64,000 nucleotides of DNA from a virus. The stretch lies in UHGV virus genome UHGV-0010228. One strand, 5' to 3'. The notes beneath the pieces were generated by a model. It worked only from the letters and a program-made list of their open reading frames with translations, searched no databases and was not told the origin of the DNA. This document shows positions 2,947 to 38,237 of this stretch, piece after piece (the first letter of the stretch is position 1; the number at the start of each line of letters is the position of its first letter). Both the position numbers and the translations under genes were made by a program.

Positions 2947-2980
2947 AAGAAGAGTTATTTAATAACTCTTCTTTTTTATT
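2947..2980 (+). terminator. rho-independent terminator
   Basis: aagaagagttatttaataactcttctt + TTTTATT. Confidence 0.7.
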
Positions 2981-3130
2981 AACTCATTTTATCTTTATAT
3001 ATTATTTTTATGCAGGACAGGAATAATCGATTATAAAAATATATAATAATAAACTTTTATATTAATTTAGAACCGTATTAGATCATGTCTTGAAATAAAT
3101 TAATGTAAGAAAAAGAAAGGGAGAATTAAA

Positions 3131-3656: not shown

Positions 3657-4397
3657 ATGAATAAGGAAGATATCAAAGATTATATAAATGATAGCGAAGT
3701 TAGAAAATATATAAATTTTGAAGCTGAATATTCTAATGGAATTATAGATAAAACTTTAATTGAAATTGAAGCTGTAACAACAGATCACCCAGAAATTGAT
3801 AGTAATAATAAATATTATAGAAATCTGATAGATACTCTTACTAGTAGTAAAGATATTTTAAATCATGCCAGAGATATTGCTTTAAAAATATTAGATAAAT
3901 GTGATGAATATACTATTGGTGAATTCTATATGCTGGTAAATGGCATTCGATCTTTATTATATGGAACTCCAATATATGCATTATCTGGAAATGATGATGA
4001 ATGGGATGATTGCACAAAAGAAATAGATAAATTAACTAAGACTATCGAATTTTATAGTCCAAAGTTCAGTAAAGTTGAAGAATATACTTCAGAAATTAAT
4101 ATTGATTCTATTGAAGTCAATAAACGGTATTCTAACATATATAGAATAAATAAAGATAATTCATTAGCATTTAGACTAGATGCAATTACTATGGAAAATG
4201 AACGGGAAGATTTTGATCCTACTGATGGTATTAGATTTATTGAGTTTCCATGGTCATATAAAGATTCAATTATAATTCCTGATAGTGTAGAAAATCCACA
4301 TAAATATATTAATGAAATGGATTTTTATTTTGATGGTACACCTATCCCTAAAAAAGAATTAGAAAGTTTAATGGAAAATAATAAGAAAGAGGAATAA
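3657..4397 (+). CDS. hypothetical protein
   Basis: 246 aa, TAGGAGG RBS; acidic; no recognised motif. Confidence 0.55.
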   Translation: MNKEDIKDYINDSEVRKYINFEAEYSNGIIDKTLIEIEAVTTDHPEIDSNNKYYRNLIDTLTSSKDILNHARDIALKILDKCDEYTIGEFYMLVNGIRSLLYGTPIYALSGNDDEWDDCTKEIDKLTKTIEFYSPKFSKVEEYTSEINIDSIEVNKRYSNIYRINKDNSLAFRLDAITMENEREDFDPTDGIRFIEFPWSYKDSIIIPDSVENPHKYINEMDFYFDGTPIPKKELESLMENNKKEE

Positions 4398-4421
4398 AAA
4401 CTCCTCTTTCTTATTATTTTT
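4383..4421 (+). terminator. rho-independent terminator overlapping stop codon
   Basis: aagaaagaggaataaaaactcctctttctt + T-run. Confidence 0.65.
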
Positions 4422-4511
4422 GTATTTATCATAAGACAATATATTATTAATATGTAAGTATACTAACACTTATATTAAAATTATATTGATTTATAGAAAG
4501 GAGATAATACT

Positions 4512-4670: not shown

Positions 4671-7071
4671 AGAAGTAAATCTTGTAAGTAAAGACAATAT
4701 ATCATTTAAAGATGATAAGTTTGTATACTTACAAGATGAATTAGACGCGATTAGAGGCGCAATGCGAATGTACATCCCTAGAGGAGAAACTGATGGAGCA
4801 TTGCATTTATTCAAGGAAATTTTCAATAATGCATTAGATGAGTGTAATAATGAAAATTCTCCGGCTAATAAGATTATTGTAGAATTTCGTGAAAGTGAGT
4901 GTAAATTCTCAGTATCAGATGAAGGAAGAGGAATTCCTACAGATATATTAGTAGATGCAGTTATGAAGAAACATGTATCTACTAAATTAGTAGACTTATC
5001 CGAATCTCGTAATAAGAGACAGACTGGTATACATGGTGTAGGTATGACAGTAACCGCAGCATTGACTGATTATATGTCACTTACAACTTATAGAGAAGAT
5101 CATTGTAAAACTATAGAACTTATAGATGGTGTAATGAAAGAATATCCTATAAAGAAATTAAAGAAACCTAGACATGGATTAGAAGTTACTTTAGTACCAT
5201 CTGAGAAATATCTAGGTGAGATTAATCTTACTAACGATATTGTAGAGGATTTTATTAGACATATGGCATATATAGTACCAGATGGAATAATAATTGAATT
5301 CTATAAAGAAGGTCCTGATGGTAATATGGTATTTACAAAATATCATAATTTAGGATTGTCTGAAAATCTTCATTACTTATCATCATCATTAGAATTTCCA
5401 CCTATAGAATTAAAAATCATTACTGAAAATTTTGATTTATTTACAGCGTTTGCATACGATAAATCAACTGATGATATGATCTACGAATCGTATGCGAATT
5501 ATGTAATAACAACTGAAGGTGGAACCCATGAGCAGTTAGTAATTAGATCTCTATGTGAATATTTCACCAGAGAAGCAAAGAAAGCAGATGCTACATCTAA
5601 ATATGAAGTAGCATATGATGATTGTAAAAAAGGATTGTGTTTTGTAGTTAATATAGAGCATGTAAGACCTGAATTAGAAGGACAGCATAAATCTAAAATA
5701 TCAAATAAAGATATATTAGCAGATGGAAAGAAACCATTATTGGATGCGCTTCATACGTATTTTAGTAACAACCCTACTCAGTTGAAGAAAATAATTACTT
5801 ATCTTAGACAGATATCTAAAATAAGACAGGAAGCACATAAGATAAAAGGAGTTTCTAATAAGAAACCATCTACGTTCTTAGATGATGCTGAAATAAAAAT
5901 GTTTAAGAATGTGTCTGATAGAAAGTATAATGGATATAAAGAATTATATATAGCCGAAGGAGATTCTGCATTATCCGGTATAGATAGTGCAAGAAATCCA
6001 AAATATCAGGCAATATTTGGAGTTCAAGGTGTTATAGACAATACTCACGACTTAACATTAACTCAATTATTGCAGAAGAGAACTTTTAAGAATTTAGTTA
6101 AAATTCTTGGATGTGGTATTGGTAAAGATTTTGATATAACTAAATTGAGATTTAATAAGATCATAATAGCATGTGATAGTGATGTTGATGGATCTAATAT
6201 TACCTCTTTGATACTATGCTTCTTCTATATCTTTATGCCAGAACTAATTACACAGAATAAGGTATTTAGAGCAATGCCACCATTATATCTATTAGATAAG
6301 AAATCTCTTAAGAAGTTTTATAATGGCAGAGAATGGTTGTATGATAAACAGGAATATTATGATTTACTTAATACTATCATAGCTAATAATGCAACTATTG
6401 CTTTACCTAATAAATCTTCTAAAAAGAATGAAGTAAATATATTATCTAAGAAAGAAAAGAAAGAGTGGCTTAGTCTCAATTCTGAATATAATCTTGAATT
6501 ACTTAATCTTAGTAAGAAAGCAACATGTGATGAAACTATTCTAGAATATGTCTGCTGGTATTTACTAGAAGCCGATGGTAATGTGAAATTATTTAAGAAG
6601 CTCATTGAGAAAGAATTTAATGAAATGGAATTCGACCCATCAAATCAGGTTCTATTAGGTTCTTGGAATGGAAATTATTTCTCATTAATATGTGATAAGT
6701 TATTCTTAAAGAGTGCAAAGAGATTCATGAACTTATTATCACAGAATATTTCACTATTCGTATATTGTGGTGATAAGGACGAAAATGATATAGAGAAAAT
6801 GACTATAGGTCAATTCTTTAATCTCATGCACAGAAATTATAATGTTAAGATCGAGCAGAGGTTTAAGGGAATTGGAGAATCAGATGCAGATTTATTATTT
6901 GTAACTACAACCAATCCTAAACTTAGAACTCTCATAAAATTTGATCTTAATAGTATAGAAGCAACAAATGAGATGTTTGAATTGCTTCATGGTAAGTCCG
7001 AAAATATGAGAGAGCAGCGTAGGCAGTTACTTGAAAATGCTGAAATATCATATGCGGATATAGACAACTAA
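4651..7071 (+). CDS. type IIA DNA topoisomerase ATPase/TOPRIM subunit (GyrB/ParE / T4 gp39-like)
   Basis: GHKL ATPase N-box EIFNNALDE, G1 DEGRGIP, G2 GIHGVGMTV; TOPRIM ELYIAEGDSA and IIACDSDVDGSNI (DxD); AAGGAGG RBS. Confidence 0.9.
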   Translation: MGKKTAKEVNLVSKDNISFKDDKFVYLQDELDAIRGAMRMYIPRGETDGALHLFKEIFNNALDECNNENSPANKIIVEFRESECKFSVSDEGRGIPTDILVDAVMKKHVSTKLVDLSESRNKRQTGIHGVGMTVTAALTDYMSLTTYREDHCKTIELIDGVMKEYPIKKLKKPRHGLEVTLVPSEKYLGEINLTNDIVEDFIRHMAYIVPDGIIIEFYKEGPDGNMVFTKYHNLGLSENLHYLSSSLEFPPIELKIITENFDLFTAFAYDKSTDDMIYESYANYVITTEGGTHEQLVIRSLCEYFTREAKKADATSKYEVAYDDCKKGLCFVVNIEHVRPELEGQHKSKISNKDILADGKKPLLDALHTYFSNNPTQLKKIITYLRQISKIRQEAHKIKGVSNKKPSTFLDDAEIKMFKNVSDRKYNGYKELYIAEGDSALSGIDSARNPKYQAIFGVQGVIDNTHDLTLTQLLQKRTFKNLVKILGCGIGKDFDITKLRFNKIIIACDSDVDGSNITSLILCFFYIFMPELITQNKVFRAMPPLYLLDKKSLKKFYNGREWLYDKQEYYDLLNTIIANNATIALPNKSSKKNEVNILSKKEKKEWLSLNSEYNLELLNLSKKATCDETILEYVCWYLLEADGNVKLFKKLIEKEFNEMEFDPSNQVLLGSWNGNYFSLICDKLFLKSAKRFMNLLSQNISLFVYCGDKDENDIEKMTIGQFFNLMHRNYNVKIEQRFKGIGESDADLLFVTTTNPKLRTLIKFDLNSIEATNEMFELLHGKSENMREQRRQLLENAEISYADIDN

Positions 7072-7081
7072 AAGGAGATAT

Positions 7082-9556
7082 ATGGCAAAGAAAAAGAAAG
7101 ATTCCGGAATAGATACTAATTCTCTATGGTCCGGAATAGAAGATGATGCATTTATCAATGAATCAAATCTTAAAGAAGTTGATATTGCAGAATATAATCA
7201 AAAAGAAATGACAATATTTTCTGCGAATGTTAATTATTTTAGACAGATTATAAGATTATCTGATTCACTAAAACCTGTAGAAAGAAGAATACTCTATTCA
7301 ATGTTTAAGTCTGGGAATCGTCCTGGACTTAAACAGAAATCAAATCTCATAGTAGGTAATGCAGCATTGATACATAATCATGGTGATTGTTATCCAACAT
7401 TAGTATCGATGTCTCAAAGATGGAAAAAGATGGTGCCGTTGATTGATGGTAAAGGAGCATTTGGTTCTGAATCTGAAGAACGATATGCTGCTATGAGATA
7501 TACTGAAGCATCTATGAGTAAATATGCTTATGAATGTTTCTTTGAAGATTATGATGATGATTGTGTTGAGCAGTTATTCAATACAGCATCTGATAGTTAT
7601 GAACCTATGTCATTACCAGCTAAATTTCCGAATATTTTAGTTAATGGTGGATTGGGTTTTGCAGTTGGTAATAGTTTCTGTATTCCACCATTTAATATTG
7701 ATGATATAATAGCTAATTGTGAGAAAGTAATGAAGAATCCTAAAGCACCAGATGTATTTATGATTCCAGATTTTCCAACAGGTTGTTATATCGTAGATGA
7801 TGGTGAAACTTTAAAGACAATATGTGATACTGGTAAAGGAACTATAAAGATGAGAGGTGTTGTTGATGTAGTAGAAACTTCTAAGACTTGGGAGTTGAGA
7901 ATAACTGCATTACCATGGTTTGTAACATTATCATCTATAGAGACAAAGCTGGTTGATCTTCATAAAAATGGTACACTTCCTATTAAGGATTTACAGAATC
8001 ATTCACATCCAATAAAATTAGCTGATGGTAAAATAGGATCTAAAGTTGATTATCGAATTATAATAGATAAAACTCATGATCCATATGCTATATTAGAGAA
8101 GATATATAAGAATACAATGCTACAGAAATCCTTAGGTATAAACTTTAAAGTTGTGCTTGAAGAGCTAGCTATAAAGACTTTATCTCTAAGAGAGCTTATA
8201 TTATCTTGGATTGATGAAAGAAGATCATATAAAAGAAGATTATATAATAAGAAGATAACTAAGCTTAGTGCTAGAATTGACTTATTAGAAATTCTCTTAT
8301 ATTTATTGAAGGCTGAGAATATCGAGAAGACATTAAAGATAATTAAAGATTCTAATTCTGATGAAGTAGTAAAGAAACTCATGAAACATGGAAAGATGAA
8401 TTCTTATCAAGCATCTAAAATTGCTGATATGAAATTATCAGCATTTACTAAAGATGCTAGAAAGAAATATGCTGAAGAGAAAGCTGCTAAAGAAAAAGAA
8501 TTAGAAAAGGTATTATCAATAGTTAAATCTGAAAAGAAAATTGATAAGATTATTCTTGAAGAACTATATGATCTTAAGAAATACTCATCTCCAAGAAAAA
8601 CTCAGGTTATAACCGATGACACTGGAGAAAAGATTGCAGATATTGATTATAATATAATCATAACTAAAATGGGATTGATTAAAAAGATACCGTTTAATCC
8701 AGATCCAAATAAGAATTCTAACATGGGTTCATTTAAGAATTTTGATGCACCTATTAAAAGAATAACGTGTAATAATCTCAATAGTATTTTAATGTTTGAT
8801 AGTTTTGGTAGATATTCTGCAGTTCCAGTTTATAAGATAGACACAACTGAATTATCTCATCATGGTAATAATCTATATGATATTGCAGGTCTTAATGGTA
8901 GCGTAGTTACTGTAATGGATCAATTAGATGATAATTATATAGAGTATATGAGTAAGATCGGCGATTTATTTATGGTAACTTTAACTAGAAATGGGTATAT
9001 TAAGAAGACACCATTAGAAGCATATACTAAAATAAGGTCAACTAAGAATATTAAAGCATGTAAACTTAGAGATGATGATTCTCTTGTATGGGCTGGAGTT
9101 GTAGTTAGTAAAGAAGATATTATTATCTATTCAAAAAAAGGTAATTATGTTGCAATGAACATAGATGATATTTCTCCACAGGGAAAAGATTCTATGGGTG
9201 TAATTGGAATGAAGATGAAAGATCTTGATGAATGTGTTGGTATTGCATTTGTTGGAGATAAAGATCAGTATATTACAGTTATAACTGAAAAAGGTAATAT
9301 AAAGAAATGTGAGATTCAATATCTCACAACTGGTAAAGGTAAGAGATCATATCTTACATCATTAGATACAAATGATAATGTTGTATTTGTATCTGGTATG
9401 ATAGATAAGGAAAGTGTTATAGTCTTTACGAGGACAGATTATACAGAAATTGAAGCGACTATAATACCAACCCTATCTAGGAAAGCAAAATGTAAGAAGA
9501 TGATACCAGTGCCACAAGGTTCATCTATAATAAGATGTGACATAGTAAAGAGGTAG
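7082..9556 (+). CDS. type IIA DNA topoisomerase DNA breakage-reunion subunit (GyrA/ParC / T4 gp52-like)
   Basis: active-site tyrosine context AAMRYTEA identical to GyrA; follows B subunit by 10 nt; AAAGGAGA RBS. Confidence 0.9.
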   Translation: MAKKKKDSGIDTNSLWSGIEDDAFINESNLKEVDIAEYNQKEMTIFSANVNYFRQIIRLSDSLKPVERRILYSMFKSGNRPGLKQKSNLIVGNAALIHNHGDCYPTLVSMSQRWKKMVPLIDGKGAFGSESEERYAAMRYTEASMSKYAYECFFEDYDDDCVEQLFNTASDSYEPMSLPAKFPNILVNGGLGFAVGNSFCIPPFNIDDIIANCEKVMKNPKAPDVFMIPDFPTGCYIVDDGETLKTICDTGKGTIKMRGVVDVVETSKTWELRITALPWFVTLSSIETKLVDLHKNGTLPIKDLQNHSHPIKLADGKIGSKVDYRIIIDKTHDPYAILEKIYKNTMLQKSLGINFKVVLEELAIKTLSLRELILSWIDERRSYKRRLYNKKITKLSARIDLLEILLYLLKAENIEKTLKIIKDSNSDEVVKKLMKHGKMNSYQASKIADMKLSAFTKDARKKYAEEKAAKEKELEKVLSIVKSEKKIDKIILEELYDLKKYSSPRKTQVITDDTGEKIADIDYNIIITKMGLIKKIPFNPDPNKNSNMGSFKNFDAPIKRITCNNLNSILMFDSFGRYSAVPVYKIDTTELSHHGNNLYDIAGLNGSVVTVMDQLDDNYIEYMSKIGDLFMVTLTRNGYIKKTPLEAYTKIRSTKNIKACKLRDDDSLVWAGVVVSKEDIIIYSKKGNYVAMNIDDISPQGKDSMGVIGMKMKDLDECVGIAFVGDKDQYITVITEKGNIKKCEIQYLTTGKGKRSYLTSLDTNDNVVFVSGMIDKESVIVFTRTDYTEIEATIIPTLSRKAKCKKMIPVPQGSSIIRCDIVKR

Positions 9557-34343: not shown

Positions 34344-35815
34344 ATGATTGATATTAGTATGGAAGCGGTTATTAATCCTGAACCAGAAGATGGATCAGAA
34401 CCAATTCCTATGCAAATTGAATTAATAACTGATGCTATGATCACTAAAGCTAAATTAAAACCGGTTACTAATCCGATCTCATTTGTTCGTGGATCAGAAC
34501 CAACTCCTGATGGAATATTTTCAGAAGAAATATTTGGTAGTGATACCGCTAGTAGATCTAGACAGTTTGCATATATAGATCTACATCAGAAATTTTTCCA
34601 ACCATATGTATATGAAGTAATAAAAACCCTTGATCGTAAAATCGATAAGGTTGCATCTGGTAAAGGATATTGGCACATCAATGGTAGAGGTGAATTGATT
34701 GAGATTAAAGATCCGAAAGATTCACGATATGATGAGATGGCTACTGGATTAAATTGGGTTATTGAAAATTTTGATAAGATTAAATTTAAGACATCAGATG
34801 CAATAACTCGACAGGATAAACTTAGGTTCCTTAAGAATATTTCGGATGAAGAAAAGTTTGTATCTAAATGGATCGTTATACCAGTTACTTATAGAAATTT
34901 TATTGAAAAGAATGGTAGAATGGCAGTAACTGATATAGATGATATTTATACAAAATTAATATCCTATACCAATGGTATAGGTAATGATCCATTTGATTAC
35001 ATGAATAATCAATTATTATATAATATCCAGATGGAATTAGTAAAACTCCGTAAGTTAGGCGGAGATCTTATTAGAGGTAAGCATGGTTTTATGCATAAAG
35101 CTATGCTAGGTAAATCTACAGATTTAGGAGTCAGAGATGTTATATCTCAGATGTCTCTAAATCATTGTGAACGTCCGGAGGATAATCCTGTGGATATATT
35201 TCATAGTGGAGTACCATTAAGTAAATGCCTAGTATTAGGATATAACTTTATACTGAAATGGTGCTTAGATTTCTTCGAAAATAATTTCAAAGATAAAAAA
35301 GAACTTATAGTTTTTAAAGAAAAAGATGGTGTAAGAACTGAAAAACAAAAAATACCTATAAAGGATCAAACTATAATTTATACTAAATCGTTTTTAGATA
35401 AAAAGATTAAGCAATATCAGAACACACCAGCTATAAGATTCGATCCTATCGTGTTATATACAATAGATGGGAATGAACTCCCATTAACATTTGTAGGGTC
35501 ATTCGGTTCTATTAATAGTAGGGATATTGATGCAGCATCAATATCTAGAAGAAATATGACATGGACAGATTTGTTTTATATGGCTGCAATGGATACAATT
35601 TCGGATAAATATATATATTCAACTAGATTCCCAATAACGAGTTATAGTTCAATATTTCCGTCACTTTGTACTCCATTAACAACTATAAAAACGATACCTG
35701 CAATAATAAATAATCGAGTATATCCGAATTATCCATATGTAGAATTAGATATTGATAAAGGTGATATAGTTACTAGATTTATAGATACATTATGCATCAG
35801 TGATTTATTCCTTGA
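34344..35815 (+). CDS. multisubunit RNA polymerase beta-prime homologue, N-terminal half, exon 1 (ends inside catalytic DxDGD motif)
   Basis: ATG 34344 after AAGGAGGAG (track start 34326 is TTG); DGIFSEEIFGS ~ beta-prime DGLFCxRIFGP; QFAYIDLHQKFFQPYVY ~ RMGHIELAAPVAHIWF; MLGKSTDLGVRDVI ~ LLGKRVDYSGRSVI; TRFPITSYSSIFP ~ NRAPTLHRLGIQAFEP; homology stops at ...CISDLFLD. Confidence 0.8.
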
Positions 35816-36217
35816 TGCAATAGGCGGCGACTGGACTGCCATCATGGTCGCCTACAGTAGTAATACTGTACAAGAAAAGTCAGGTGAACTCCTAACCAGA
35901 GGTGTCTATCAGATGATAGGCTAACGGTCGAAGTTAGATAAGTATGTATACATATCCTAGCCAGATATGGTCCTGTTATATTATAACAGTATATAACGAA
36001 TACGCTTCTTAAGAGAGTCTAAGGTCCAGTTTATATTGGATAGCTTTGAGAATACCGTGCCAAGACTTGATATTATTCAAGTAAGGTGTAGAGACTAATA
36101 GTAGAATATGAGATGGAAAAGCTCATATACGAAGTGCCAGACCACCCCCACTATTTTATATAATAGAGGGTGAATGAGATAGTCCACATAGAGTTTTCTC
36201 TCGAGAATCCTCGAAAG
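35816..36217 (+). ncRNA. group I self-splicing intron (ORF-less, 402 nt) inside the beta-prime gene; boundaries +/- a few nt
   Basis: GC-richer segment with in-frame stop (35922); matches to group I core elements R (GAGACTA, 36091-36097) and S (GATAGTCC, 36178-36185) able to form P7, P8-like hairpin atatgag...ctcatat between them; ends in G36217; flanking exons are collinear with beta-prime. Confidence 0.75.
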
Positions 36218-36395
36218 TAATGACGGCGATACGATGAGTAGTAAGTTAGTTTTTTCATTAGAAGCTAATGAAGAAGCTAGGGCACTTGCTGAATCATTAT
36301 CTAATTTTGTATCAGCAGACGGATCGTTAATTAGGAATGTAAAAAATGAAGCTTTCTTATGTTTCTATAATATGACCAGAACTGATAGAGCATAG
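36218..36395 (+). CDS. RNA polymerase beta-prime homologue, exon 2 (restores DxDGD and following conserved segment)
   Basis: same frame as exon 1; (D)NDGDTMSSKLVFSLEANEEARALAESLSNFVSADGSLIRNVKNEAFLCFYNMTR ~ E. coli beta-prime (NADF)[54 protein letters not shown]; spliced product reads LFLD-NDGD. Confidence 0.7.
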
Positions 36396-37409: not shown

Positions 37410-38237
37410 ATGAAAGAAATTATTACATTACTTAAATCAGCACGACGAACTGTGGTTTCTGCCATCGTAGTTAGTTGCATCATATTATCATCAGTTGGTA
37501 TCAGTTACAGTGCAGATACGGTTGATAATAATGAACAGACTAATCCTGAGATTAACACTATAGAGTGCAGCGGTATGGTGAATATTGCTAAGGCAATACA
37601 TTCAGCATCATCCTGTTATAGGGACATCTTAGTTTCAGCTAAGAATGACCTTAAAAAGCAGGCTATAGCTACTGATGAGCAGAAACAGGCAGAAAGGGGA
37701 CTGCCAGAGAGGACTGTAGTTATTCATGAGCTGGAAGCTGATGAATGTGATCTGGAACCTGCAGTTGAAGAAGAGCCAGCACCAGTTGTAGTTATTAATA
37801 CAACAGATATCACTAAACCTTCAGGTTTAACAGCTGACCAGTTAAATACTCTAATAAATAACGTTTTAACTAAGATGGGGAAGAAGAGTTCTCAGTTATA
37901 TAATCAGGGGCAAGCATTATATAATATGGAACAAAATCATGGCACTAATGCATTATTAGCATTAGCAGTTGCATCGTGGGAGTCAGGTTGGGGAACTTCC
38001 AAAGTTGCTTGGAATAAGAATAATCTATTCGGGATTTATGGCAAAGGAACCAGTAGATCGTTTAGTACAGTAGGGGAATGTATAGATTATTTTGGAAAAC
38101 TTATGGCAACTAAATACTTCCCAAAAGGACGTACATCAATTTCTTCTATAGGAAAGATATATTGTACTACTCCTACATGGGCAAGTAAAATACAATATAC
38201 TTATTCAGTATATAAAGATGCTGTTAATTATATATAA
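37410..38237 (+). CDS. peptidoglycan hydrolase, N-acetylglucosaminidase (FlgJ/AcmA glucosaminidase family) with N-terminal signal peptide
   Basis: LALAVASWESGWGTSKVAWNKNNLFGIYG matches the glucosaminidase ALLESGWG...NNLFGIK core; N-terminus MKEIITLLKSARRTVVSAIVVSCIILSSVGISYSA looks like a Sec signal/signal-anchor. Confidence 0.75.
   Translation: MKEIITLLKSARRTVVSAIVVSCIILSSVGISYSADTVDNNEQTNPEINTIECSGMVNIAKAIHSASSCYRDILVSAKNDLKKQAIATDEQKQAERGLPERTVVIHELEADECDLEPAVEEEPAPVVVINTTDITKPSGLTADQLNTLINNVLTKMGKKSSQLYNQGQALYNMEQNHGTNALLALAVASWESGWGTSKVAWNKNNLFGIYGKGTSRSFSTVGECIDYFGKLMATKYFPKGRTSISSIGKIYCTTPTWASKIQYTYSVYKDAVNYI

What the first reader, a model, noticed from the sequence alone, without database searches (positions are those of the whole stretch)
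35816..36217. Group I intron inserted inside the catalytic DxDGD codons of a phage RNA polymerase beta-prime gene
ORF 34344..35924 aligns to the beta-prime N-terminal half but ends 36 residues after the homology stops at ...LFLD. A 402-nt GC-richer segment with an in-frame stop follows. It contains near-exact matches to the group I core elements R (GAGACTA, 36091-36097) and S (GATAGTCC, 36178-36185), which can pair as P7, with a hairpin (atatgag/ctcatat) between them, and it ends in G. Homology to beta-prime resumes in the same reading frame at 36219 with NDGDTMSSKLVFSLEANEEARAL...FYNMTR, equivalent to E. coli [22 protein letters not shown]...YYMTR. Removing 35816..36217 gives ...LFLD NDGD TM..., which reconstructs the Mg-binding DxDGD triad. 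The intron has no ORF. The exact junction is uncertain by 1-4 nt, because the placement giving DNDGD ends the 5' exon in A rather than the usual U.
Basis: partly seen in the sequence, partly recalled or inferred. Interest (0 to 1): 0.8.

Follow-up and report, generated by a model that had tools for sequence, protein, structure and literature searches.

The report
ORF-less group I intron in phage RNA polymerase
A 387-base self-splicing-type (group I) intron interrupts the catalytic aspartate motif of a gut jumbo phage's virion RNA polymerase gene; this kind of intron is already known at this spot in related phages, but this copy ends in A instead of the near-universal G.

Summary
Homologs, P1 and P10 put it at 35833..36219 (387 nt), not 35816..36217. 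Splicing GAC U|AU GAC restores ...LFLDAIGGD-Y-DGDTM..., matching the invariant GDxDGD (x = Y/F) of 30 uninterrupted homologs.

Homologous introns occupy the same site in relatives. A pseudoknotted P3-P7 core with P4-P6 is supported by covariation in 22 family members (80% of cells paired against 36-41% with slid partners; 0 of 500 shuffles reach the score).

Rfam RF00028 does not hit the window. It also misses 17 of 17 family loci while hitting AR9 intron 2 at the same motif, so the miss is uninformative.

Introns in this gene are already annotated in AR9, Madawaska and MarsHill and described in the literature, so this is a new member of a known kind.

One anomaly remains. The last intron base is A36219, not G. 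Two independent assemblies reproduce the sequence. Fourteen same-site relatives with scored junctions all end in G. One other ORF-less relative (L052) also ends in A. Whether and where it splices needs RNA data.

The parts
34344..35832 (+). Exon 1 of the gene for the N-terminal half of the beta'-like subunit, homolog of AR9 gp145 (annotated as virion RNAP). It ends ...LFLDAIGGD plus the first base (U) of the Tyr codon.
   Evidence: PHROG 2986 E = 1.9e-75. tblastn with the intron-less LPJP1, Goe21 and S6 proteins aligns up to window 35834.
35833..36219 (+). Group I intron, 387 nt, no ORF, member of a large phage intron family
   Evidence: Homologous introns at the same site in L012, L009, L010 and L052. 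Family covariation. Junction by P1, P10 and homologs.
36220..36395 (+). Exon 2: AU completes the Tyr codon, then DGDTMSSKLVFSLEANEEA...FYNMTRTDRA and the stop codon
   Evidence: tblastn with intron-less homologs resumes at 36222. Alignment with 30 homologs shows G495 D496 x D498 G499 D500 invariant.
35826..35852 (+). P1: GGCGACU (35826-35832) pairs with GGUCGCC (35846-35852). The U35832.G35846 wobble marks the 5' splice site.
   Evidence: The wobble is kept in 5 of 5 close relatives, and the neighbouring pair is compensated C-G to U-A in L009. A P1 run of 5-7 with U(-1) is found in all 16 same-site introns.
35837..35845 (+). P10 guide (UGCCAUCAU), which pairs with the first 9 bases of exon 2 (36220-36228, AUGACGGCG) at 8 of 9 positions
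   Evidence: Register test: the window gives [7,1,3,8,2,3,6] for shifts -3..+3, the same profile as canonical L010 and L228.
35853..35870 (+). P2 hairpin, 7 bp, with a GUAA (GNRA) tetraloop
   Evidence: Two pairs are compensated between the window and L009/L010, and the loop is conserved. The single-sequence MFE fold recovers it.
35880..35886 (+). P3 5' strand (UCAGGUG). It pairs with 36135-36141 and forms a pseudoknot with P7.
   Evidence: Four of 7 pairs show changes on both sides in 22 sequences (helix 3).
35889..35921 (+). Two extra hairpins between P3 and P4: a 3-bp stem with a conserved UAACCAG loop (35889-35901) and a 7-bp hairpin (35904-35921). Names are provisional.
   Evidence: Both are compensated in the family (helices 4-6).
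35924..36058 (+). P4 (35924-35928 / 36054-36058) enclosing P5 (35930-35934 / 36004-36008) and its extensions, including hairpin 36025-36040
   Evidence: P4 is invariant in 22 of 22 sequences. P5 has one compensated pair. The 36025-36040 hairpin is compensated (helices 8-10).
36059..36087 (+). P6 (GCC/GGU) and the P6a hairpin. In relatives, homing-endonuclease ORFs sit in this loop.
   Evidence: All three P6 pairs and the P6a pairs are compensated (helices 11-12). ORF insertions at this point in relatives are seen.
36091..36097 (+). P7 5' strand (R element GAGACUA): G36091-C36185, A36092 bulged, G36093-C36184 (candidate guanosine-binding pair), then A-U, C-G, U-A, A-U
   Evidence: The outer pair is GC in 14 and AU in 8 sequences. 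The pair after the bulge is GC in 22 of 22 (helix 14).
36106..36128 (+). Hairpin between the P7 5' strand and the P3 3' strand (P7.1-like): AUAUGAG / CUCAUAU
   Evidence: (helices 15-16).
36135..36141 (+). P3 3' strand (UGCCAGA)
   Evidence: helix 3.
36143..36172 (+). P8 hairpin (CACCC / GGGUG plus an inner stem)
   Evidence: A-U is compensated to G-C between the window and L012. The MFE fold recovers it. It is poorly aligned across the family (helix 17).
36180..36185 (+). P7 3' strand (S element UAGUCC)
   Evidence: helix 14.
36190..36213 (+). Two small 3' hairpins (P9-like AGAG-UUUU-CUCU; P9.1-like CGAG-AAUC-CUCG)
   Evidence: Read directly from the sequence; the second is recovered. No covariation data. 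L012 carries an insertion here.
36219..36219 (+). Omega position: A instead of the expected G
   Evidence: The sequence is identical in two independent assemblies, L265 and L266.

Best explanation
Window 35833..36219 is a 387-nt group I intron without an ORF. It belongs to a large family of phage group I introns with a subgroup-IA-like layout: an extra hairpin lies between P7 and the 3' strand of P3.

It sits inside the Tyr codon of the catalytic D-Y-D-G-D motif of the gene for the N-terminal half of the beta'-like RNA polymerase subunit. This gene is the homolog of AR9 gp145, which is annotated as a virion RNAP subunit, in an AR9/PBS1-like jumbo phage from the human gut.

Inferred mechanism:
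1. The guide sequence GGUCGCC (35846-35852) pairs with the end of exon 1 (GGCGACU) and presents the U35832.G35846 wobble.
2. An external guanosine bound at the G36093-C36184 pair of P7 attacks after U35832.
3. P10 (35837-45 with 36220-28) aligns exon 2.
4. The exons are joined as GAC U|AU GAC, which restores ...AIGGDYDGDTM....

The RNA architecture and the junction register are shown by comparative evidence. Catalysis is inferred. The second step is uncertain because the intron's last base is A, not G.

The intron has presumably lost, or never had, the homing endonuclease that relatives carry in the P6 or P9 loops, so it is probably immobile on its own.
For: (1) The gene is collinear with PHROG 2986 only when spliced. 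Intron-less homologs read ALGADYDGD, ALGGDYDGD and ALGADFDGD. Thirty metagenomic homologs have GDxDGD invariant with x = Y or F.

(2) Homologous introns sit at the same codon in L012, L009, L010 and others. L010 has canonical GACU|...CUGCAG|AC GAU.

(3) P1 shows an invariant U.G wobble and compensation. P2 keeps its GNRA loop and is compensated.

(4) The family-wide structure test has 72 pairs. 80.2% of cells are paired against 36-41% with slid partners. The covariation score is 0.367 against about 0.10, and 0 of 500 shuffles reach it. The P3/P7 pseudoknot is compensated, and the pair after the P7 bulge is GC in 22 of 22 sequences.

(5) The P10 register is identical to that of canonical relatives: 8 of 9 pairs at shift 0 and 1 of 9 at the G36217 alternative.

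(6) Fourteen same-site relatives have U(-1) and omega-G and restore an exact F/Y-DGD.

(7) Parts of the core match sequences inside annotated intron positions of other Gram-positive phages.

(8) AR9 intron 2, at the same motif, is an RF00028 hit of 86.7 bits.

(9) The MFE fold recovers P1, P2, P4, P6, P7.1 and P8, with z = -2.35.

(10) Published context: PMC12350094 Fig. 5A; bioRxiv 10.1101/2020.12.14.422802.
Against: There is no RF00028 hit, even at E <= 10 on 651 nt. This is weakened by the fact that 0 of 17 family loci are hit and that L009, L010 and Madawaska are missed too.

The omega base is A36219. It is established knowledge that the 3'-terminal G binds the P7 site in the second step and is almost universally conserved. 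The P7 site here is unchanged, so exon ligation at A should be strongly impaired.

There is no RNA evidence of splicing for this phage. Helix names beyond the core are provisional. P8 and P7.1 are only weakly supported in the family alignment.
Confidence: 0.8

Rival explanations
1. The intron uses the nearby G36217 as its terminal G and a 5' cut after A35830. This removes 35831..36217 and gives ...AIGGD-N-DGD....
For: It keeps the omega-G rule. It is in frame and has the right length.
Against: The 5' exon would end in A paired with U, inside a continuous helix, instead of at the U.G wobble that is invariant in 5 of 5 close relatives and present in all 16 same-site introns. P10 in that register pairs at only 1 of 9 positions. 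N never occurs at this position in 60 homologs examined, where it is always Y or F.
Confidence: 0.08
2. The intron is splicing-impaired or dead because of a G-to-A change at omega. The gene would then be a recent pseudogene, or would yield mostly mis-spliced product, for example at the cryptic G36222, which gives D-Y-G-D.
For: A at omega with an unchanged P7 G-binding pair. P10 at shift +3 still pairs at 6 of 9 positions. It is established knowledge that omega-G-to-A mutants of model introns block or misdirect exon ligation.
Against: The same sequence occurs in three independent samples, and the downstream gene is on 14 contigs, so the phage is circulating. There is one copy of the gene in the window, and its AR9 homolog is annotated as a virion RNAP subunit. 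Both exons are intact and conserved. A second, unrelated A-ending intron (L052) also sits in an intact beta'-like gene.
Confidence: 0.1
3. One reading: intron 35816..36217, giving ...LFLD-NDGD....
For: It is in frame (402 nt) and ends in G.
Against: It deletes AIGGD, including an invariant Gly and the first catalytic Asp position of the alignment, so the protein would be five residues shorter than every homolog. There is no P1 or wobble at 35815. P10 is out of register.
Confidence: 0.01
4. There is no splicing, and the gene is split into two polypeptides: an exon-1 read-through product ending at 35924 and a 53-aa product starting at Met36234.
For: Both ORFs exist. Gene callers report the read-through ORF (P0001).
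Against: Neither piece would contain the D-G-D residues. There is no start codon in frame between 36192 and 36234. The conserved ribozyme core would be left unexplained.
Confidence: 0.01

Closest known systems
Bacillus phage AR9 gp145 (annotated as the N-terminal part of the virion RNAP beta' subunit), intron 2
   Same: Same host gene family (about 32% identity) and same catalytic motif. AR9 intron 2 lies at D-Y-D|G-D, with the exon ending in U and the intron in G. It is a group I intron, RF00028 at 86.7 bits.
   Different: AR9's intron is about 1.9 kb and carries a homing endonuclease (gp146). It sits 5 nt downstream of the window's site. It belongs to a different sequence lineage that Rfam detects, and it ends in G.
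Staphylococcus jumbo phages Madawaska, MarsHill and Machias, introns in the same gene
   Same: Same gene and same motif, at D-F-D-G|D. The exon junctions were annotated by alignment.
   Different: The insertion point is 8 nt downstream. The core family is different (GUUCAACGACUA type). Madawaska's intron carries an endonuclease, and the MarsHill and Machias ones are only 143-183 nt.
Phage group I introns of subgroup IA (T4 td/nrdB, Twort orf142/nrdE, SPO1 DNA polymerase)
   Same: ORF-optional self-splicing introns in essential phage genes at conserved sites. P2 has a GNRA loop, there is an extra helix between P7 and P3', and the R and S elements are of the GACUA/UAGUC type. Some family members have Twort-like GUGUAACGACUAU...GAUAUAGUCU cores. 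The comparison with the Twort and T4 sequences rests on my own recollection.
   Different: This family has two extra hairpins between P3 and P4 and only one P7.x hairpin in the window's copy. No family member tested is detected by RF00028. The window's copy ends in A.
PhiPA3 intron with homing endonuclease in an RNAP subunit gene (Birkholz et al. 2024, as summarised in PMC12908238)
   Same: A mobile group I intron in a jumbo-phage RNAP gene. The general principle is that introns target active-site codons.
   Different: It is in a chimallivirus of Pseudomonas and carries an endonuclease that acts in phage-phage competition. The window's intron has no ORF.

Membership tests
Group I intron | Interrupts a gene; removal restores a continuous, conserved coding sequence | tested here: met
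   Removing 35833..36219 gives ...AIGGDYDGDTM..., collinear with PHROG 2986 and with 30 or more homologs.
Group I intron | P1 helix between the end of the 5' exon and an internal guide sequence, with a U.G wobble at the splice site | tested here: met
   35826-32 / 35846-52. The wobble is invariant in 5 of 5 relatives and the neighbouring pair is compensated. All 16 same-site introns have U(-1).G.
Group I intron | Conserved core: P3-P7 pseudoknot with P8, and a P4-P5-P6 domain, in the canonical strand order | tested here: met
   Covariation test on 22 sequences: 80.2% of cells paired against 36-41% with slid partners, and 0 of 500 shuffles reach the score. P3, P6 and the outer P7 pair are compensated. 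Two extra hairpins between P3 and P4 are non-canonical additions.
Group I intron | Guanosine-binding site: a G-C pair in P7 next to a bulged nucleotide | tested here: met
   G36093-C36184 follows the bulged A36092. The pair is GC in 22 of 22 family members. Its function is inferred from position only.
Group I intron | 3'-terminal guanosine (omega-G) | tested here: not met
   The last base in the P1/P10/homology register is A36219, reproduced in two other assemblies. Fourteen same-site relatives have G. L052 also has A.
Group I intron | P10 pairing between the guide region and the start of the 3' exon | tested here: met
   8 of 9 pairs in register, with the same shift profile as canonical relatives.
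Group I intron | Match to the Rfam covariance model RF00028 | tested here: not met
   No hit at the gathering score or at E <= 10. Controls: 0 of 17 family loci are hit, and L009, L010 and Madawaska are missed, while AR9 intron 2 scores 86.7 bits. The miss reflects the model's sensitivity.
Group I intron | GTP-dependent self-splicing | not testable with these tools
   Needs in vitro transcription and splicing assays, or RNA from infected cells.
Subgroup IA group I introns | Extra helices (P7.1/P7.2) between the P7 5' strand and the P3 3' strand | tested here: inconclusive
   The window has one such hairpin (36106-36128). Some family members have two. The definition of the subgroup is taken from my own knowledge of the literature, and no subgroup model was available.
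Mobile intron (homing) | Intron-encoded homing endonuclease | tested here: not met
   There is no ORF in the insert. Relatives carry GIY-YIG or HNH-like ORFs in loops.

The most novel reading that the evidence does not exclude
Two independent ORF-less members of this phage intron family (the window's intron and L052) are natural group I introns that complete accurate exon ligation with a 3'-terminal adenosine, while keeping a standard G-C guanosine-binding pair in P7. This would be a natural exception to the omega-G rule. It may be made possible by the unusually long P10 (7-9 bp) that holds the 3' exon in place.
Probability: 0.3. Interest if true: 0.6.

Novelty: new member of a known kind. Interest (0 to 1): 0.33.

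Why it matters
For annotation, the gene should be joined as 34344..35832 + 36220..36395. Gene callers currently report a truncated 526-aa product with a spurious tail (P0001), plus many similar truncated entries in protein databases.

For RNA bioinformatics, a family of at least 53 viral-contig loci is invisible to RF00028, so a dedicated covariance model would recover many phage introns.

For biology, the GDxDGD codons of phage beta'-like genes are an insertion hotspot. At least five adjacent positions are used by at least three intron lineages, in line with the idea that mobile introns target active-site codons.

The A-terminated copies, if they splice, would be a natural test case for how strictly the second step of group I splicing needs guanosine.

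Tried and rejected
- **Rfam scans.** The whole window at gathering score and 35700-36350 at E <= 10 gave no group I hit. I treated this as uninformative after the controls.
- **Pfam on the unspliced ORF and on exon 2.** Nothing useful.
- **megablast of the region against phages.** No match.
- **Exact look-up of the 53-aa exon-2 ORF.** Not on record.
- **DNA pattern scans for the start of exon 2 and for the window/L012-type 3' end**, in metagenome and viral contigs. No matches, so I could not find a closer relative with or without the intron, nor the 3' end of the L012 variant.
- **blastn of a Twort-like family member (L258) against phages.** No match.
- **Literature search for natural non-G omega introns.** Nothing specific. 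The AR9 genome paper and the J Virol paper were not held.
- **Alternatives considered and rejected.** Intein: there are in-frame stops. Group II intron: no Rfam D5/D1-D4 hit in the window, although AR9 and MarsHill intron 1 give such hits. Frameshifting, or a 2-nt assembly error at the 3' junction: the sequence is reproduced in L265 and L266.

Full report
**What is in the sequence.** ORF 34344..35924 is followed by about 300 nt without a credible ORF on either strand. A short in-frame continuation then ends at 36395. The region 35800-36250 has 0.35-0.46 G+C, against about 0.25-0.35 around it.

**The host gene.** Pfam does not recognise the ORF. The joined product does match PHROG 2986 (labelled RNA polymerase beta subunit) in a single stretch: residues 21-542 against profile 6-535 of 539, E = 1.9e-75.
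- Its N-terminal part matches a chain of PDB entry 7s01 named DNA-directed RNA polymerase beta' subunit (E = 8e-9).
- Residues 489-545 align with E. coli beta' 458-515, the NADFDGD region.
- The best tblastn relatives are AR9/PBS1-like jumbo phages of Listeria, Bacillus and Staphylococcus, at 31-35% identity.
- The AR9 homolog, gp145, is annotated as the N-terminal part of the virion RNAP beta' subunit.
- Independent assemblies of the same phage come from human gut samples, one of them Hadza.

**Where the junction really is.** Intron-less homologs read ALGADYDGDT (LPJP1), ALGGDYDGDT (Goe21) and ALGADFDGDM (S6). Thirty metagenomic homologs have G495, D496, D498, G499 and D500 invariant, and in 60 homologs examined the residue between the first two Asp is always Y or F.
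- tblastn homology runs to 35834 and resumes at 36222.
It mistakes the D of LFLD for the first catalytic Asp.
- The junction that restores the family motif and length is 35832|36220: GGC GGC GAC U|AU GAC GGC GAU gives G-G-D-Y-D-G-D (one search lists the alternatives).

**RNA evidence for that junction.**
- GGCGACU (35826-35832) pairs with GGUCGCC (35846-35852), giving a U35832.G35846 wobble.
- In five related introns the wobble is invariant. The adjacent pair changes C-G to U-A in L009, where a synonymous GAC-to-GAU exon change is matched by G-to-A in the guide.
- The nine bases just 5' of the wobble G (35837-45) pair with the first nine bases of exon 2 at 8 of 9 positions.
- In a register test on 16 same-site introns, the true junction gives the best or joint-best P10 in the 14 canonical ones.
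- The window's profile over shifts -3..+3 is [7,1,3,8,2,3,6]. That matches L010 [6,1,2,8,1,2,7] and L228 [7,2,3,8,2,3,5].
- Starting exon 2 at 36218, as ligation after G36217 would require, gives 1 of 9 pairs.

**It belongs to an intron family.** Gene callers truncate many homologs at or just after ...GGD. DNA for several of them shows homologous inserts at the same codon:

| Locus | Relation to the window |
|---|---|
| L012 | host protein 98% identical |
| L009 | host protein 62% identical |
| L010/L011 | host protein about 53% identical |
| L052 | more distant intron in another beta'-like gene |

A motif from the P4 region (GCTAACGGTNRAAGYTARATAAG) finds 53 loci in the viral contig collection. 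Many are on contigs of more than 100 kb, and many carry endonuclease-like ORFs in the P6 loop. Twelve of these sit in NAD, GAD or GGD | (F/Y)DGD sites of beta'-like genes. Four more same-site introns came from the protein hits.

**Structure.** RNAalifold on five copies gave P1, P2 (GUAA loop), a long-range helix, a nested P4/P5/P6 domain and a hairpin after the R element. Thirty-four of 85 pairs had changes on both sides. I then wrote the full pseudoknotted structure on the window and counted it on a 22-member alignment:
- 72 pairs, with 80.2% of cells paired against 36-41% when partners are slid by 1-3 columns.
- Covariation score 0.367 against about 0.10, and 0 of 500 shuffles reach it.
- P3 (35880-86 / 36135-41) has four pairs with changes on both sides.
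- The outer P7 pair switches G-C (14 sequences) to A-U (8 sequences).
- The pair after the bulged base, where the guanosine site lies in group I introns, is G-C in 22 of 22.
- P4 is invariant, and P6 and P6a are compensated.
- The strand order is P3, P4-P5-P4', P6, P7, hairpin, P3', P8, P7'. This is the group I order with an extra helix between P7 and P3', as in subgroup IA (from my own knowledge of the literature).
- Two further hairpins between P3 and P4 are additions that I could not name.
- P8 and the P7.1-like hairpin are poorly aligned family-wide. They are supported by close relatives and by the MFE fold, which also recovers P1, P2, P4 and P6 (z = -2.35).

**The Rfam test.** RF00028 gives nothing on the window. 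Controls show this is a sensitivity problem:
- AR9 intron 2, at the same motif, scores 86.7 bits.
- L009, L010 and the Madawaska intron score nothing.
- 0 of 17 family loci reach the gathering score.

The same control showed that AR9 intron 1 and MarsHill intron 1 are group II introns. This agrees with PMC12350094.

**Links to annotated introns.** Weak blastn matches of the window's P4'-P6-R region fall in three places:
- inside the annotated nrdE intron of phage Machias, just upstream of its HNH ORF;
- in the gap of a split DNA polymerase gene of a Twortvirinae phage;
- next to an 'HNH homing endonuclease # Phage intron' in a split polymerase gene of Enterococcus phage EF1.

**The anomaly.** With the junction fixed by P1, P10 and homology, the last intron base is A36219.
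- The nearest Gs do not help. Ligation after G36217 is out of frame unless the 5' cut moves to A35830, which has no wobble, has P10 at 1 of 9, and gives an N never seen in homologs.
- Ligation after G36222 gives D-Y-G-D and loses a catalytic Asp.
- The sequence ...CTCGAAAGTAATGACGGCGAT is identical in two independent assemblies that differ from the window by a few SNPs elsewhere. It is therefore not an assembly error.
- All 14 same-site relatives with scored junctions have U(-1) and a terminal G. L247 probably does as well.
- The one other exception, L052 (...AGCACA|UUU GAU GGU GAU), has no in-frame alternative with G. It sits in a beta'-like gene that is open for at least 402 codons upstream and 106 codons downstream.
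- Both exceptions lack an ORF, and both keep the standard P7.
- The window holds one copy of the gene, and the phage is found in several samples. Some functional mRNA is therefore presumably made, but I cannot tell how.

**Comparison with what is known.** Introns in this gene are annotated in several relatives:
- AR9 (three exons).
- Madawaska (two exons, with an endonuclease).
- MarsHill and Machias.

By comparing near-identical pairs with and without the intron, I placed AR9 intron 2 at D-Y-D|G-D and the Staphylococcus phage introns at D-F-D-G|D. The family described here uses three further positions: after GAY, after GAY+U, and after GAY+UU. Some database proteins break after DGD.

The literature makes three relevant points:
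- RNAP subunit genes of jumbo phages are frequently intron-disrupted, and AR9 mature mRNAs were determined experimentally (bioRxiv 10.1101/2020.12.14.422802).
- PMC12350094 Fig. [quoted passage not shown]
- Introns favour active-site codons (PMC12908238).

The finding is therefore a new member of a known kind.

**Verdict.** This is a real group I intron with corrected coordinates 35833..36219. Confidence is about 0.8 that it is a group I intron, and about 0.65 that the mature junction is GACU|AUGAC. The finding is ordinary in kind and modest in interest. Two points are worth a follow-up: the terminal A, and the fact that RF00028 misses the whole family.

Noticed in passing
L005:6830-6987 and 7110-7252; L006:5219-5401, 5602-5752 and 5852-6019: The 'introns' annotated by alignment in the same gene of Staphylococcus phages MarsHill and Machias are only 143-183 nt. 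They share a GTTCAACGACTAAAT (R-like) element, a GATATAGTCTAAT (S-like) element and a TTGCTGG...CAGCA helix. MarsHill i2 also has a P1 with a U.G wobble (ACGGU/GCCGU). If they self-splice, they would be unusually small group I introns.
   Followed up: partly
L052:2426-2797 (- strand), identical in L249: This is a second ORF-less family intron with A instead of G as its last base (...AGCACA|UUU GAU GGU GAU). It sits at NAD|FDGD of an intact beta'-like gene, and no in-frame alternative with a terminal G exists.
   Followed up: partly
53 loci L213-L264 (viral contigs); window 35919-35941 is the motif: A large phage group I intron family shares GCTAACGGTNRAAGYTARATAAG. Rfam RF00028 detected none of the 17 loci tested, so Rfam-based screens undercount phage introns.
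   Followed up: partly
L004 (AR9) 2948-3032 and 4272-4445 (- strand); L005 (MarsHill) 5228-5334 and 6567-6638: The first intron of the same gene in AR9 and MarsHill is a group II intron (RF00029 and RF02004 hits). This gene is therefore invaded by both intron classes, as already reported in PMC12350094.
   Followed up: yes
L269:5395-5985 and L270:4915-5505 (- strand); L267:5426-6361 (- strand); L009:2326-2673 (- strand): In several same-site relatives, the ORF called downstream of exon 1, apparently within the intron, lies on the strand opposite to the host gene. One has a weak GIY-YIG hit. Antisense endonuclease genes in group I introns are uncommon.
   Followed up: no
L012:3380-3463: The closest relative (host protein 98% identical) has the same intron but with extra sequence inserted after AGAGTTT in the P9 region, where the window has two short hairpins. 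The contig ends before exon 2, so its terminal base is unknown.
   Followed up: partly
window 35823-35832 and 36220-36233: The exon bases next to the intron use G+C-rich codons (GGC GGC GAC; GAC GGC GAT ACG) in an A+T-rich genome. These bases form P1 and P10 with the guide sequence, so this may reflect selection for pairing, or co-conversion during homing.
   Followed up: no
window 37410-38237: This ORF matches endolysin PHROGs (for example phrog_25820, E = 1e-10). The gene order downstream of the polymerase gene, with a glucosaminidase-domain protein, is shared with L010 and L265.
   Followed up: no
protein hits P0030, P0033, P0037, P0044, P0050, P0053: Other homologs are truncated after DYD, DF or DGDE rather than after GGD. 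This suggests still more insertion positions within or just after the catalytic motif.
   Followed up: no
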